Assembly: GCA_964601215.1 (NCBI GenBank)
Contig: CAZRMN010000002.1
Span: 2,314 to 57,081 of the forward strand
Direction of reading: 5' to 3'
DNA from: an uncultured archaeon
Lineage (GTDB): Archaea; Aenigmatarchaeota; Aenigmatarchaeia; CG10238-14; SCSR01
Length of the DNA: 54,768 nucleotides
The notes under the pieces are model-generated. The model was given only the letters and a program-made list of their open reading frames with translations, had not been told where the DNA came from and made no database searches. Positions 19,184-22,215 of the stretch are shown here, piece by piece. Each line of letters starts with the position of its first letter. Position 1 is the first letter of the stretch. The position numbers and the translations under genes were made by a program.

Positions 19184-21913
19184 CTATCCCCTCTTGCCTT
19201 GAGATTTATACAATTCTCTAACTCTTTGAATAGTATCTGCCTCGCTAGGCCCTTTATCATCCCTTATCCTCACTAATCGAGGAAACCTTAAAGCAAAACC
19301 AGATTCATAGTTTGGAGATTTTTGAATTTCTTGATAAGCTACCTCTACTACAACCTTTGGTTTGATTTTAACTTCTCTTCCCCTTTCCTCTTCTATTAAT
19401 TTTTTAAGAATTTTTGTCATATTTTCGAATTGCTCTTCTGTTAAACCTGTACCCATCATACCACAAGGCAAAAATTTTCCTGTATCAGGGTCTCTGCAAG
19501 CTAGAACATAAGAGCTAAGCCAGTTTGCTCTAGAACCAACACCCCATGTTGCACCAACTATAACCAGATCTAAAGTTTCCATTATTGGTTTAATTTTGTA
19601 CATTGTACCAACATGCCTCCCAAAAACATAAGGAGAATCCAAAACCTTGAGCATGAGCCCTTCTTGATTTTCCTTTAAAGCTTGTTGATAAAACTTTTCA
19701 AGTTTTTTCACATCACCAGTAATTATTTGTTTTGCTAACTCAAACTTTCCAGGAATTACTTTAATTGTTCTTTCCAAAATCTTCCTTCTTTCCCTGAAAG
19801 GTTTGTCAAAAAGTTCTTTTCCTTCCAGGTAAACTATGTCGAAGAGATGAATTTGAATGGGTATTTCTTTTACCATTTTTTCAATATCATATTTCCTATG
19901 AATTCTTTGGGACAAAACTTGGAATGGTAAGGGGGAACCAGTTTTTGGGTCTATTCCAAGAACTTCCCCTTCTACTATGCATTCTTTTGCTTTAATTCCT
20001 TTTTTACATAGCTCAACTAAGTCAGGAAATTGTTTTGTAACATTTTCTTGTCTTCTTGTAAAAAGCCAGATTTTATCTCCTTTTTTATGAATTTGGCAAT
20101 TATGCATAGCTAGCATGGTTGTACAATAGCTCTGATCATCCTCGACCTCTAAATTATAAAAATTCGACCTAGGATCAGGATACTTTACTTCTTTTTTCCT
20201 TAAAATCTTAACGAATACTTTATTTCCAACTATTCTTGCATAAGTATTACTTTTTGGCAGAATTAACTTGTAATAAGTTCTTCCTTTTACCCTTATTTTC
20301 TTTATACCTATTATCTTTCTATGTTTAAGTGCAAGAAATTGAACCATCATTGCAATAGTTTTTTCTTTTGTAGTAATAGTAACAGTACCATTTTTGTCCG
20401 TACTACCGTCAGCTTCGACCAAACCTTGCAAAAATTCCAAAAACCTTTTTTTATCAAGGCCTATAAACCATTCAGGAAGAGTCTTACCCTTCCATCCTCT
20501 TCTCTTATGTCTAAAATTATGAGAAAGCCAAATCATAAAAGGTTTATCAGTCCAGTAGATATCAATAGCTCCAGGGTAGTTATAATTAGAAATATTTTTT
20601 ATTCCAAATTCTTTTCTTATGATTCTTTTATACTTTTCACAAAGTTTTTTTTCAGTTTTTTTATTAAATTGAAGACCTATTCTAAAATTTCCATTAAAAG
20701 TATTTGTATAACCATCACCTATCCAAAAACCCAGAAATCTGAAAAAATTCTTATTTAGGGTAAACTCCTTTTTGTATCCATCTCTTGTGGTAAGAACCAT
20801 CTTTTGTGGTATATTTTTAGAACTAATTTTTGGGATCGGAAACACTACTTCAGCACTCTTAGGAACTTTTTCAACAGGTACCCATCTTGGTTTCCCGTCT
20901 AAATTAATTAAAATCTCGTGCCCTTCTGTAATTTTGAATTCGTTTCCGAGATAAGTAGAAATTTTAAAAACTCTTTCTCCTTTTCTTTTTTTTCTTTTTA
21001 GTTTTGCCACTACTTTTTTAAATCTACCAGTATGTGTAAGAACATAATCATTAACTTTCACATCTTTTACAGAAATTAAACCCTTATTCTTGACATATAT
21101 AGGTGTTAGCCCAGAAATGCACCTAACACCATCGTATTTGAATTCGGCAGCAACCTTCCCAAATTCATCCACAACTTCTTTAATATTTTCAGCTTTTTCT
21201 CCTAGCATTACTTGAATAGGCCTACCAAGCTGGACTTTAACTTTTTTTAATCCTTTTATCCCTTCCTCTTTTGCTATTCTTGCAATTTCACCAAAATCGG
21301 AGAGAATGTTCCAAGCATACTCTACAACTCGAGTTATTTTCTCTTTCTCTTTTTTGTCCATTCCTTCTTTCAACAAAAATGCTTTTATTATCGCATCTCT
21401 TATAATTCCTTCTGCCACCCCCACTCTTAGTTCCCCAAGAATGGTTCTAGTTATATATCTTGCCTCTTTTGGTTTTGCTGAAATAAGTAATTGAACGATT
21501 AAATCTAGCTTTTTGTCCTGAGAACCAACCCCAGTTATAAAAGGCAATTTTTGTAAATTCTTAAAAACTAAGTCTACTGTTAACTTCTTCTTCACAAGAG
21601 GTATTTGTTTTCTTGATTTAACACATTCCTCTGCTGTTAACCCCAAATCTCCAGTTTTTTTGAATATTTCTTCTACTTTTGCGGTACTAAAACCTGCAGC
21701 TTTAGAAATTGCTCTTATCATCATTTGCGTAGCAATCCCTAATTCATAGCCTAAAAATTTGGGGAATACTACTCCTTGGACTAATAATACAACTTTTGGT
21801 AGGTCTTCTGTTGGTGTTTTTTTGAGTAAATTTGCAAGAATATTAGTTTTTTCAATTTTACCAGTTATCTTTTCCAATTTTTCATAAGTTTCTGCTAAGA
21901 TCGAATAATCCAT
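19184..21913 (-). CDS. lig: ATP-dependent DNA ligase precursor with intein (about 568 aa after splicing)
   Basis: EFKYDGVR, then after the intein CQIH, IVEGE, FDIVY, EGLMLK, YKIK, DLVIVG, LRFPR. Confidence 0.97.
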   Translation of the reverse strand: MDYSILAETYEKLEKITGKIEKTNILANLLKKTPTEDLPKVVLLVQGVVFPKFLGYELGIATQMMIRAISKAAGFSTAKVEEIFKKTGDLGLTAEECVKSRKQIPLVKKKLTVDLVFKNLQKLPFITGVGSQDKKLDLIVQLLISAKPKEARYITRTILGELRVGVAEGIIRDAIIKAFLLKEGMDKKEKEKITRVVEYAWNILSDFGEIARIAKEEGIKGLKKVKVQLGRPIQVMLGEKAENIKEVVDEFGKVAAEFKYDGVRCISGLTPIYVKNKGLISVKDVKVNDYVLTHTGRFKKVVAKLKRKKRKGERVFKISTYLGNEFKITEGHEILINLDGKPRWVPVEKVPKSAEVVFPIPKISSKNIPQKMVLTTRDGYKKEFTLNKNFFRFLGFWIGDGYTNTFNGNFRIGLQFNKKTEKKLCEKYKRIIRKEFGIKNISNYNYPGAIDIYWTDKPFMIWLSHNFRHKRRGWKGKTLPEWFIGLDKKRFLEFLQGLVEADGSTDKNGTVTITTKEKTIAMMVQFLALKHRKIIGIKKIRVKGRTYYKLILPKSNTYARIVGNKVFVKILRKKEVKYPDPRSNFYNLEVEDDQSYCTTMLAMHNCQIHKKGDKIWLFTRRQENVTKQFPDLVELCKKGIKAKECIVEGEVLGIDPKTGSPLPFQVLSQRIHRKYDIEKMVKEIPIQIHLFDIVYLEGKELFDKPFRERRKILERTIKVIPGKFELAKQIITGDVKKLEKFYQQALKENQEGLMLKVLDSPYVFGRHVGTMYKIKPIMETLDLVIVGATWGVGSRANWLSSYVLACRDPDTGKFLPCGMMGTGLTEEQFENMTKILKKLIEEERGREVKIKPKVVVEVAYQEIQKSPNYESGFALRFPRLVRIRDDKGPSEADTIQRVRELYKSQGKRG
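20099..21121 (-). mobile_element. 341-aa intein with LAGLIDADG homing endonuclease
   Basis: Block A CISGLTPIYV, block B ITEGH, LGFWIGDG and LQGLVEADG, block F FYNLEVEDDQSY, terminal HN followed by Cys+1. Confidence 0.95.
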
Positions 21914-21971
21914 ACAATCAACATTTAAGTTCTTATAATTTAATATTTATAGATATTGAGGATGATATGTG

Positions 21972-22133
21972 ATGCCTCATACATGGACGTTTGGCTTTTG
22001 TGAAGTTTGTCTCAAGAATTCCCACAAAAAAATAAAAATGGTAAAAAGAAAAATTGTTTCTGGCGACCCTAAAGGAAATTATTCTAAAGAGATGTGGGTT
22101 TGTCCTGAATGTGGGGCAACTAAAGAACTATAA
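21972..22133 (+). CDS. Zn-ribbon microprotein, 53 aa
   Basis: Manual translation MPHTWTFGFCEVCLKNSHKKIKMVKRKIVSGDPKGNYSKEMWVCPECGATKEL; SD-like GAGGATGA upstream. Confidence 0.75.
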   Translation: MPHTWTFGFCEVCLKNSHKKIKMVKRKIVSGDPKGNYSKEMWVCPECGATKEL

Positions 22134-22215
22134 ATTTCAAGAAAACTAAAACTTTTCCAAAAATTATTAGTACCAAAAGTTTTAATCGTTAAAATAAAAA
22201 GTTTTATTAGAGAAA

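What the first reader, a model, noticed from the sequence alone, without database searches (positions are those of the whole stretch)
20099..21121. Homing-endonuclease intein inserted six residues after the catalytic lysine of DNA ligase
Seen: a full intein (C1...HN, Cys+1) interrupts motif I as KYDGVR|CQIH and retains both LAGLIDADG motifs. Known: inteins favour active sites of replication proteins, but in archaea the usual hosts are PolB, PolD, MCM, RFC and similar; an ATP-dependent ligase is an uncommon host to my knowledge. Inference: the precursor cannot ligate until spliced, so Cys1/Cys+1 redox or stress sensitivity could gate ligation; the endonuclease may still be mobile.
Basis: partly seen in the sequence, partly recalled or inferred. 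Interest (0 to 1): 0.64.

Follow-up and report, generated by a model that had tools for sequence, protein, structure and literature searches.

The report
Homing intein in archaeal DNA ligase
The DNA ligase gene of this hydrothermal-vent DPANN archaeon is interrupted at its active-site motif by a real, probably still mobile, self-splicing intein. The same insertion was already published for a haloarchaeon and occurs in over a hundred DPANN and CPR ligases, so it is a good specimen of a known kind.

Summary
Observation confirmed to the base. The lig ORF (19184-21913, minus strand, 909 aa) carries a 341-aa intein at 20099-21121, with junctions KYDGVR|C...MHN|CQIH. Removing it leaves a 568-aa ligase, the length of its intein-free orthologues.

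The insert has every splicing residue and two intact LAGLIDADG motifs. Its model (pLDDT 93) matches solved intein endonucleases.

The novelty claim fails. The same site with a homologous intein (47% identity) is in the 2014 Haloterrigena thermotolerans "ligase" allele (PMC4071816). At least 114 of the 120 best database hits share it. They come from DPANN archaea and CPR bacteria.

Within the host phylum (Aenigmatarchaeota) the intein is rare and scattered. Two intein-free alleles about 98% identical to intein-bearing ones exist, and both have Cys at +1. The one matching this window differs almost only within -250 to +170 nt of the insertion point (Fisher p = 4e-31), which is a recombination tract.

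The endonuclease aspartates are kept in 113 and 114 of 114 alleles. The endonuclease domain is as constrained as the ligase. Recent mobility is therefore likely.

Redox gating remains untested. Verdict: new member of a known kind, modest interest.

The parts
19184..21913 (-). lig precursor ORF, 909 aa: ATP-dependent DNA ligase of the archaeal Lig1 type, with one intein
21122..21913 (-). N-extein, aa 1-264: DNA-binding domain and the first strand of the nucleotidyltransferase domain
   Evidence: Pfam DNA_ligase_A_N matches aa 3-175; junction located
21122..21139 (-). Ligase motif I, KYDGVR (K259 to R264); K259 is the adenylated lysine by homology
   Evidence: Aligned to KYDGAR of ligase 3RR5; coordinates
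20099..21121 (-). Intein, 341 aa, class 1 type: Cys1, T65-x-x-H68, H340-N341
20789..21121 (-). N-terminal splicing (Hint) part, intein aa 1-111. Block A is CISGLTPIYV (21092-21121); block B is NEFKITEGHEILI (20906-20944)
   Evidence: All-beta in the AF2 model; C1 and H68 are invariant in 114 alleles
20246..20788 (-). LAGLIDADG homing-endonuclease domain, intein aa about 112-292, with a duplicated alpha-beta-beta-alpha-beta-beta-alpha core
   Evidence: Secondary structure; Foldseek matches to I-DmoI, PI-SceI, PI-PfuI and TliVMA; Pfam LAGLIDADG_3
20708..20746 (-). LAGLIDADG motif 1, FFRFLGFWIGDGY; catalytic Asp136
   Evidence: D136 present in 113 of 114 alleles
20402..20443 (-). LAGLIDADG motif 2, FLEFLQGLVEADGS; catalytic Asp238
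   Evidence: D238 present in 114 of 114 alleles
20099..20245 (-). C-terminal splicing part, intein aa 293-341. Block F is FYNLEVEDDQSYC (20123-20161, with invariant Cys333); block G is TTMLAMHN (20099-20122)
20096..20098 (-). Cys+1 codon (TGC), the first residue of the C-extein and the splicing nucleophile
   Evidence: Cys in 113 and Ser in 1 of 114 alleles
19184..20098 (-). C-extein, 304 aa plus stop: the rest of the nucleotidyltransferase domain and the OB domain
   Evidence: Pfam DNA_ligase_A_M matches aa 607-775 and DNA_ligase_A_C matches aa 795-887
21122..21371 (-). N-side flank of the recombination (co-conversion) tract: about 250 nt of extein that is 72-93% identical to the otherwise 97-100% identical intein-free allele L001
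19929..20098 (-). C-side flank of the same tract, about 170 nt

Best explanation
This is a genuine class 1 intein carrying a two-motif LAGLIDADG homing endonuclease. It is inserted in frame directly after motif I (KYDGVR) of the single archaeal-type ATP-dependent DNA ligase of an Aenigmatarchaeota (DPANN) archaeon from a hydrothermal vent.

Inferred mechanism. The gene is translated as a 909-aa precursor whose nucleotidyltransferase core is split. The intein then excises itself by the standard four steps: an N-S acyl shift at Cys1, transesterification to Cys+1, cyclisation of Asn341 assisted by His340, and an S-N shift. This leaves a 568-aa ligase with Cys where most relatives have Ala, Val, Thr or Ile.

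The element is best read as a selfish mobile element, not a regulator. The freed intein endonuclease would cut intein-less lig alleles at the conserved motif I DNA, and repair would copy in the intein together with flanking extein sequence.

Shown here: the anatomy, the fold, the shared insertion site, the scattered distribution, natural empty alleles, a recombination tract around the site, and purifying selection on the endonuclease.

Inferred only: that splicing occurs, that it is constitutive, and that the endonuclease is active today.
For: Anatomy and exact in-frame excision.

Conservation across 114 alleles: C1, H68, H340 and N341 are invariant. T or S at position 65 is invariant. D136 is present in 113 of 114, D238 in 114 of 114 and K252 in 112 of 114.

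Fold: the AF2 model has pLDDT 93.1. The top Foldseek hits are the TliVMA and PhoVMA inteins, PI-SceI, PI-PfuI and PI-PkoII, with I-DmoI for the endonuclease domain. A profile search of PDB sequences finds the same proteins.

Same site in other organisms: 114 of 120 best hits and the published Haloterrigena allele.

Mobility:
- About 115 of the 120 nearest ligases lack the intein.
- Intein-bearing alleles are scattered on the extein tree; starred branches force at least 5 changes.
- Window versus the intein-free L001: 67 mismatches in 420 nt around the site against 9 in 1170 nt elsewhere, p = 4e-31.
- Second pair, L003 (intein) versus L005 (empty): 98.4% identical, with an identical site.
- Intein and extein identities are decoupled, for example 58% against 34-37% for Pacearchaeota alleles. 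Extein classes are mixed on the intein tree.
- dN in the endonuclease domain is 0.14-0.23, against 0.19-0.25 in the extein, while synonymous sites are saturated.

The intein-bearing allele is seen independently in two vent metagenome runs.
Against: No experiment was done: neither splicing nor DNA cleavage is shown.

Block F lacks the common Asp (Asn323 here) and His (Gln330 here; Glu in most alleles), so splicing kinetics could be unusual.

The direction of the recombination event cannot be polarised. It could be a gain of the intein by homing, or a loss by conversion from an empty allele.

L001 is a short metagenome contig whose 5' end is inverted relative to the window, so part of it may be an assembly chimera.

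Purifying selection on the endonuclease domain could also reflect a structural need for splicing.

No donor allele was found among L002-L004.
Confidence: 0.85

Rival explanations
1. The intein is real and splices, but its endonuclease is no longer active. The element persists only by vertical descent because imprecise loss would destroy an essential ligase.
For: Inteins with decayed endonucleases are common. P0001-P0004 form one intein clade with conserved gene neighbourhood, which fits some vertical inheritance. No donor allele for the tract was found.
Against: Both catalytic Asp residues and the conserved Lys are kept in 112-114 of 114 alleles. The endonuclease domain's dN is no higher than the extein's. 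There are presence/absence polymorphisms on a roughly 98% identical background in two lineages, one with a 420-nt tract centred on the site. Intein and extein trees disagree.
Confidence: 0.25
2. The intein is a conditional switch. A disulfide among Cys1, Cys+1 and possibly the invariant Cys333, or temperature, holds the precursor unspliced. Ligase activity is then released only under reducing or permissive conditions.
For: Cys1 and Cys+1 are present. A third Cys in block F is invariant in 114 of 114 alleles. From my own knowledge, redox-controlled splicing is documented for other archaeal inteins (Pyrococcus abyssi PolII and MoaA, Methanoculleus marisnigri PolII). Substrate-controlled or stress-controlled splicing is documented for RadA (PMC4513877, PMC5238726; listed).
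Against: Nothing in the sequence separates this reading from constitutive splicing. Most relatives in the same phylum and habitat have no intein at all, so the host does not need such a gate. The scattered, recombining distribution is that of a selfish element.
Confidence: 0.1
3. The insert is not a functional intein. It would be a non-splicing inserted domain, a pseudogene or a metagenome misassembly.
For: The window comes from a metagenome assembly. The Pfam Intein_splicing score (29-31 bits) is below that model's gathering cut-off of 35.8.
Against: The 909-codon frame is uninterrupted. All splicing residues are present. The Hint plus endonuclease fold is predicted with high confidence. The same architecture appears in more than 100 independent assemblies. 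Logan contigs of two runs span the intein and both junctions with 0-3 differences.
Confidence: 0.02

Closest known systems
The 'ligase' intein allele of Haloterrigena thermotolerans DSM 11522 ATP-dependent DNA ligase I (Soucy et al. 2014, PMC4071816, supplementary alignment ligase.fullset)
   Same: Identical insertion point (KYDGAR|CISGYTPIY...AVHN|CQLH). Homologous intein, 47% identity over 341 aa, E 6e-117. Both LAGLIDADG motifs present. Cys1 and Cys+1.
   Different: The host is a haloarchaeon, where 1 genome of 118 surveyed carried it. That intein is 349 aa against 341 aa here. On the intein tree it groups with Nanohaloarchaea alleles, not with the window's clade.
Structurally solved archaeal and yeast intein endonucleases: TliVMA and PhoVMA (7QSS, 7QSU, 7QST), PI-SceI (1VDE, 1LWS), PI-PfuI (1DQ3), PI-PkoII (2CW7)
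   Same: Hint splicing domain interrupted by a two-motif LAGLIDADG endonuclease. Foldseek E 5e-18 to 1e-12. Profile matches of sequence E 9e-9 to 1e-4.
   Different: Only 11-16% sequence identity, and different host proteins. At 341 aa this intein is more compact: it shows no extra DNA-recognition region like PI-SceI's and no stirrup domain like PI-PfuI's. That last comparison is inferred from length and the model only.
Redox-sensitive inteins (Pyrococcus abyssi PolII and MoaA, Methanoculleus marisnigri PolII) and the conditional RadA intein (PMC4513877, PMC5238726)
   Same: Class 1 inteins in archaeal replication or repair enzymes, with Cys1 and Cys+1.
   Different: Conditional splicing was shown experimentally for those. 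Here it is only a possibility. Membership was not tested.
Split-intein 'fractured' phage DNA ligase (Dassa et al. 2009, PMC2677866) and other ligase-borne inteins
   Same: An ATP-dependent DNA ligase acts as the intein host.
   Different: Those are split inteins with free-standing endonuclease genes in phage-type ligases. This one is contiguous, with an embedded LAGLIDADG domain, in a cellular Lig1-type enzyme.

Membership tests
Class 1 intein (Hint-fold protein-splicing element) | Nucleophile (Cys, Ser or Thr) at intein position 1 | tested here: met
   Cys1; 114 of 114 alleles
Class 1 intein (Hint-fold protein-splicing element) | Block B motif T/S-x-x-H | tested here: met
   T65-E-G-H68. His is present in 114 of 114 alleles. 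Position 65 is Thr in 59 and Ser in 55.
Class 1 intein (Hint-fold protein-splicing element) | C-terminal His-Asn followed by Cys, Ser or Thr at +1 | tested here: met
   H340-N341|C+1. HN is present in 114 of 114 alleles. Position +1 is Cys in 113 and Ser in 1.
Class 1 intein (Hint-fold protein-splicing element) | In-frame removal restores a contiguous, full-length host protein | tested here: met
   The 568-aa product matches the ligase models in one stretch, has the same length as intein-free orthologues, and natural empty alleles L001 and L005 exist.
Class 1 intein (Hint-fold protein-splicing element) | Hint fold of the splicing domain | tested here: met
   AF2 pLDDT 93; Foldseek matches to solved inteins over the whole length.
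Class 1 intein (Hint-fold protein-splicing element) | Block F Asp and His. These are common accessory residues and are not strictly defining. | tested here: inconclusive
   Asn323 stands at the usual Asp position (family: N in 87, D in 27). Gln330 stands at the usual His position (family: mostly Glu). Such variation is known among active inteins.
Class 1 intein (Hint-fold protein-splicing element) | Actual protein splicing | not testable with these tools
   Needs expression of the precursor.
LAGLIDADG homing endonuclease (monomeric, two-motif, intein-borne) | Two LAGLIDADG helices, each ending in an acidic catalytic residue | tested here: met
   WIGD136G and VEAD238G, kept in 113 of 114 and 114 of 114 alleles.
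LAGLIDADG homing endonuclease (monomeric, two-motif, intein-borne) | Pseudo-dimeric alpha-beta-beta-alpha-beta-beta-alpha fold | tested here: met
   DSSP pattern over aa 124-288. I-DmoI matches with TM about 0.7 on the target. Pfam LAGLIDADG_3 E 1e-10.
LAGLIDADG homing endonuclease (monomeric, two-motif, intein-borne) | Site-specific cleavage of the intein-less allele | not testable with these tools
   Indirect support only: the recombination tract, scattered distribution and purifying selection.
Ligase motif-I intein allele ('ligase' allele of PMC4071816) | Same insertion point, between the Arg of KxDGxR and the next residue | tested here: met
   KYDGVR|C here and KYDGAR|C in Haloterrigena.
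Ligase motif-I intein allele ('ligase' allele of PMC4071816) | Intein sequences homologous along their whole length | tested here: met
   47% identity, 341 of 349 aa aligned, E 6e-117. Both fall in one family on the tree.
ATP-dependent DNA ligase, archaeal/eukaryotic Lig1 type (host protein) | Three-domain architecture (DNA-binding, nucleotidyltransferase, OB) with motif I KxDGxR | tested here: met
   Pfam and NCBIfam matches. E 3e-156 to ligase 3RR5 and 2e-154 to 2CFM.
Redox-gated conditional inteins | Catalytic cysteines able to form a disulfide (Cys1 with Cys+1 or an internal Cys) | tested here: inconclusive
   Cys1, Cys+1 and invariant Cys333 exist. I could not measure their distances in the model.
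Redox-gated conditional inteins | Splicing blocked by oxidation and released by reduction | not testable with these tools
   Needs a splicing assay.

The most novel reading that the evidence does not exclude
The intein is not merely selfish. The triad Cys1, invariant block-F Cys333 and Cys+1 would form a redox-sensitive or heat-sensitive lock, so that in this vent archaeon the only replicative ligase matures only under reducing, permissive conditions. That would be a post-translational gate on Okazaki-fragment sealing and repair. A second, better supported but less radical reading also remains open: this one intein family circulates across domains, between DPANN archaea, CPR bacteria and their hosts, for example Nanohaloarchaea and Haloterrigena. 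It could then serve as a tracer of DNA exchange in episymbiont networks.
Probability: 0.1. Interest if true: 0.55.

Novelty: new member of a known kind. Interest (0 to 1): 0.28.

Why it matters
As an object it is ordinary. Inteins favour active-site motifs of replication enzymes, and this very site has been in print since 2014.

Its value is as a specimen.
- Natural intein-bearing and empty alleles on a roughly 98% identical background exist in two lineages. One pair shows a 420-nt recombination tract centred on the insertion point. The other pair offers a perfect natural target site. Field evidence this clean for the homing cycle is uncommon in uncultured archaea, and it supplies ready substrates for a cleavage assay.
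- Motif I of ATP-dependent ligases appears to be an intein hot spot. It has two sites two residues apart in one phylum, and related inteins sit at the same position in viral-type ligases.
- One allele is shared by DPANN archaea, CPR bacteria and a haloarchaeon. That may be useful for tracing gene flow among ultra-small symbionts and their hosts.

Tried and rejected
I could not count other inteins in the whole genome. Within the window, an HMM of this intein family finds only this one.
Coexistence of both alleles in one sample could therefore be judged only from Logan contigs laid on the window. Run X4 covers both exteins but has zero depth over the intein. The 527-nt contig in X1 that skips 20092 to 21389 has only a 24-nt anchor and 87% identity, so it is a more distant relative and weak evidence.
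- dN/dS could not be estimated properly because synonymous sites are saturated (pS 0.7-0.85). Only dN could be compared between domains.
- I looked for the donor of the recombination tract among L002-L004. Identity does not rise inside the tract, so none of them is the donor.
- The direction of the event (gain or loss) could not be polarised, because the nearest outgroups are only about 76% identical.
- The supplementary tables of PMC4760082, which list the archaeal ligase inteins, are not held.
- The A/B extein classes used on the intein tree are a crude 40% identity cut. One sequence sits at 39.97%, and class B includes a haloarchaeal-type extein. I therefore treat "at least 5 changes" as "several".
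- I considered and rejected the idea that intein-b (P0162) is the same element shifted by two residues. It is only 21.5% identical and 399 aa long.
Full report
**1. The observation**

The minus-strand ORF 19184-21913 encodes 909 aa. Translation places CISGL...LAMHN at residues 265-605, which is window 20099-21121, exactly the coordinates given. The preceding residues are KYDGVR and the following ones are CQIHKK. Intein Cys1 is therefore the sixth residue after the motif I lysine K259.

Pfam finds the three ligase domains plus LAGLIDADG_3 (E 4e-10) and Intein_splicing. The latter scores 29-31 bits, below that model's 35.8-bit cut-off. NCBIfam ligase models match the precursor in two stretches and the intein-less 568-aa product in one. 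The product aligns end to end with solved archaeal ligases: 3RR5 at E 3e-156 and 2CFM at E 2e-154. KYDGVRCQIH aligns to KYDGARVQVH.

**2. Anatomy of the insert**

I extracted 114 inteins from the 120 best database hits and aligned them. Residue conservation was then counted on that alignment:
- Cys1, His68, His340, Asn341 and Cys333 are invariant.
- Position 65 is always Thr or Ser.
- The two LAGLIDADG aspartates are kept in 113 of 114 (D136) and 114 of 114 (D238).
- The conserved TKE lysine (K252) is kept in 112 of 114.

An AlphaFold2 model built on 24 of these sequences has mean pLDDT 93.1. It shows an all-beta splicing domain (aa 1-111 and 293-341) interrupted by a duplicated alpha-beta-beta-alpha-beta-beta-alpha domain (aa about 112-292). 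The best Foldseek matches are the TliVMA and PhoVMA inteins, PI-SceI, PI-PfuI and PI-PkoII (E 5e-18 to 1e-12). I-DmoI matches the endonuclease part. A profile search of PDB sequences finds the same proteins.

Block F is slightly unusual. Asn323 and Gln330 stand where many inteins have Asp and His. An HMM of this family finds no second intein in the window.

**3. How common it is, and whether the site is known**

A search with residues 225-650 of the precursor returned 483 clusters. The 120 best are nearly all ligases of about 900 aa. Of these, 114 show K-x-D-G-x-R|C...HN|C/S-x-I/V/L-H with inteins of 333-354 aa. Four of the other six show the same N-side junction.

Named sources include Nanoarchaeota, Pacearchaeota, Woesearchaeota, Diapherotrites and Nanohaloarchaea. 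They also include CPR bacteria (Levybacteria and Daviesbacteria). The Levyibacteriota contig is truly bacterial, with FtsH, Fpg, Pth and a 5'-3' exonuclease nearby.

In the literature, Soucy et al. 2014 list a new "ligase" intein allele in one haloarchaeon. Their supplementary alignment shows it in the Haloterrigena thermotolerans DSM 11522 ligase, at KYDGAR|CISGYTPIY...AVHN|CQLH. That intein is 47% identical to the window's. Novikova et al. 2016 also name archaeal DNA ligase as an intein host. I found no open-access paper describing its DPANN and CPR distribution.

**4. The host lineage**

A search with the spliced extein finds mostly 568-aa intein-free ligases at 70-77% identity. Many are labelled Aenigmatarchaeota. 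The runs that hold the window are hydrothermal-vent metagenomes. Relatives P0002-P0004 share the intein and the neighbourhood nitroreductase - lig - TrmB - ThrRS.

Among 110 scored intein-free relatives, the residue at the +1 position is Ala in 48, Thr in 17, Val in 16, Cys in 13, Ile in 12 and another residue in 4.

On an extein tree the nine intein-bearing alleles are scattered among empty ones. Well-supported branches force at least 5 changes.

**5. Evidence of recent mobility**

Two near-identical pairs of intein-bearing and empty alleles exist.

(a) Window versus L001 (protein P0121, 97% identical, with Cys at +1). At the DNA level, 67 mismatches fall in the 420 nt from -250 to +170 around the insertion point. 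Only 9 fall in the remaining 1170 nt (Fisher p = 4e-31). Of the 66 codons that differ across the whole gene alignment, 50 differ synonymously. This mosaic is what co-conversion of flanks during homing produces. Replacement of the intein by a foreign empty allele would produce the same pattern, and I cannot tell the direction.

(b) L003 versus L005 (P0003 and P0195). These are 98.4% identical across the gene, with evenly spread differences, the same divergence in 1.5 kb on either side, and an empty site identical to the joined flanks over at least 24 nt on each side. This is a clean insertion/deletion polymorphism.

Further evidence:
- Intein identity is decoupled from extein identity. For example, it is 57-59% against 34-37% for three Pacearchaeota-type alleles, but 54% against 64% for P0010.
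- The intein tree mixes extein classes.
- Among the four closest alleles, synonymous sites are saturated. Even so, dN in the endonuclease domain (0.14-0.23) is no higher than in the splicing domains or the ligase itself (0.19-0.25).

Together with the conserved catalytic residues, this makes an active or recently active homing endonuclease likely. I put that at about 0.65.

**6. Sequencing runs**

Logan contigs of two vent runs (X1, X2) span the intein and both junctions with 0-3 differences. A third run holds exact fragments. A sediment run (X4) covers both exteins at 85-98% identity but has no depth over the intein. One of its contigs stops matching exactly at the C-terminal junction. So the intein-bearing allele is not an artefact of one assembly, and related intein-less alleles occur in nearby habitats.

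**7. Wider context found on the way**

phmmer against 1.84 billion representatives gives 1811 hits. The ligase allele forms a tight group: 11 representatives fall below E 1e-30. The next-nearest inteins (28-34% identity) also sit in ATP-dependent ligases. In viral-type ligases they occupy the same motif I position (K-x-D-G-x-x|C). In ligases fused to a metallo-beta-lactamase domain they lie in motif V.

In Aenigmatarchaeota a second, unrelated intein (399 aa, 21.5% identical) lies two residues downstream, at KYDGARVQ|C...VVHN|CHK. Cys at that second +1 position occurs in 18 of 109 empty alleles. Motif I is thus an intein hot spot.

**8. Interpretation**

The best explanation is a selfish, splicing-competent homing intein. 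The precursor is very probably inactive as a ligase, because the nucleotidyltransferase core is split right after the adenylation motif. That is an inference from ligase structures. The enzyme matures by ordinary class 1 splicing.

Cys1, Cys+1 and an invariant Cys333 are present, and other archaeal inteins set a precedent. However, the sequence gives it no specific support. It also fits poorly with the fact that most relatives in the same phylum live without the intein.

**Verdict:** new member of a known kind, with interest of about 0.28.

Noticed in passing
P0162 (no locus fetched); the equivalent window position is the codon two residues after 20096-20098, that is 20090-20092: A second, unrelated LAGLIDADG intein (399 aa, 21.5% identical to this one) sits two residues downstream in a related Aenigmatarchaeota ligase, at KYDGARVQ|C...VVHN|CHK. 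Cys at that position occurs in 18 of 109 intein-free relatives, and Cys at the first site's +1 in 12 of 109. These may be scars of past occupancy.
   Followed up: partly
L006:9001-11757: The same intein allele sits in a Lig1-type ligase of a CPR bacterium (Levyibacteriota, 143-kb contig). Its neighbours are bacterial genes: FtsH, Fpg, Pth and a 5'-3' exonuclease. About 30 CPR-type alleles form one intein clade. One intein family is therefore shared across domains.
   Followed up: partly
Intein tree (Haloterrigena sequence taken from PMC4071816, supplement 6): The published Haloterrigena thermotolerans ligase intein groups, with support of 98, with the clade that holds the Nanohaloarchaea alleles (P0075, P0109, P0120). 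This fits intein exchange between nanohaloarchaeal symbionts and haloarchaeal hosts.
   Followed up: no
P0247, P0248, P0249, P0251 (motif I) and P0245, P0246, P0250 (motif V): The nearest non-allelic relatives of this intein (28-34% identity) also live in ATP-dependent ligases. In viral-type ligases they occupy the same K-x-D-G-x-x|C position. In ligases fused to a metallo-beta-lactamase domain they lie in motif V (DLW|C...HN|SKIK).
   Followed up: partly
L001:1-367 versus window 21818-22184: The first 367 bases of the intein-free contig L001 match the window in inverted orientation at 98.6% identity. The ligase gene there therefore lacks its first 63 codons. This is either an assembly fold-back or a real inversion at the lig 5' end.
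   Followed up: no
window 21972-22133 (+): The 53-aa CxxC...CPxCG ORF that diverges from lig is conserved in relatives. It is nearly identical in L001 (one residue differs). Clear homologues of 51 aa occur in L002 and L004. It is absent from L003 and L005, where the nitroreductase gene abuts lig.
   Followed up: partly
window 20123-20161 (-), intein block F: Cys333 is invariant in all 114 alleles of this intein family, but it is Val in the related viral-ligase inteins. The usual block F Asp and His are replaced by Asn323 and Gln330 (mostly Glu in the family). The role of Cys333 is unknown.
   Followed up: no
P0125, P0127, P0172, P0182, P0186, P0196, P0218, P0229: Eight intein-free Aenigmatarchaeota ligases have KYDGMH in place of KYDGxR, with His replacing the conserved motif I Arg.
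   Followed up: no
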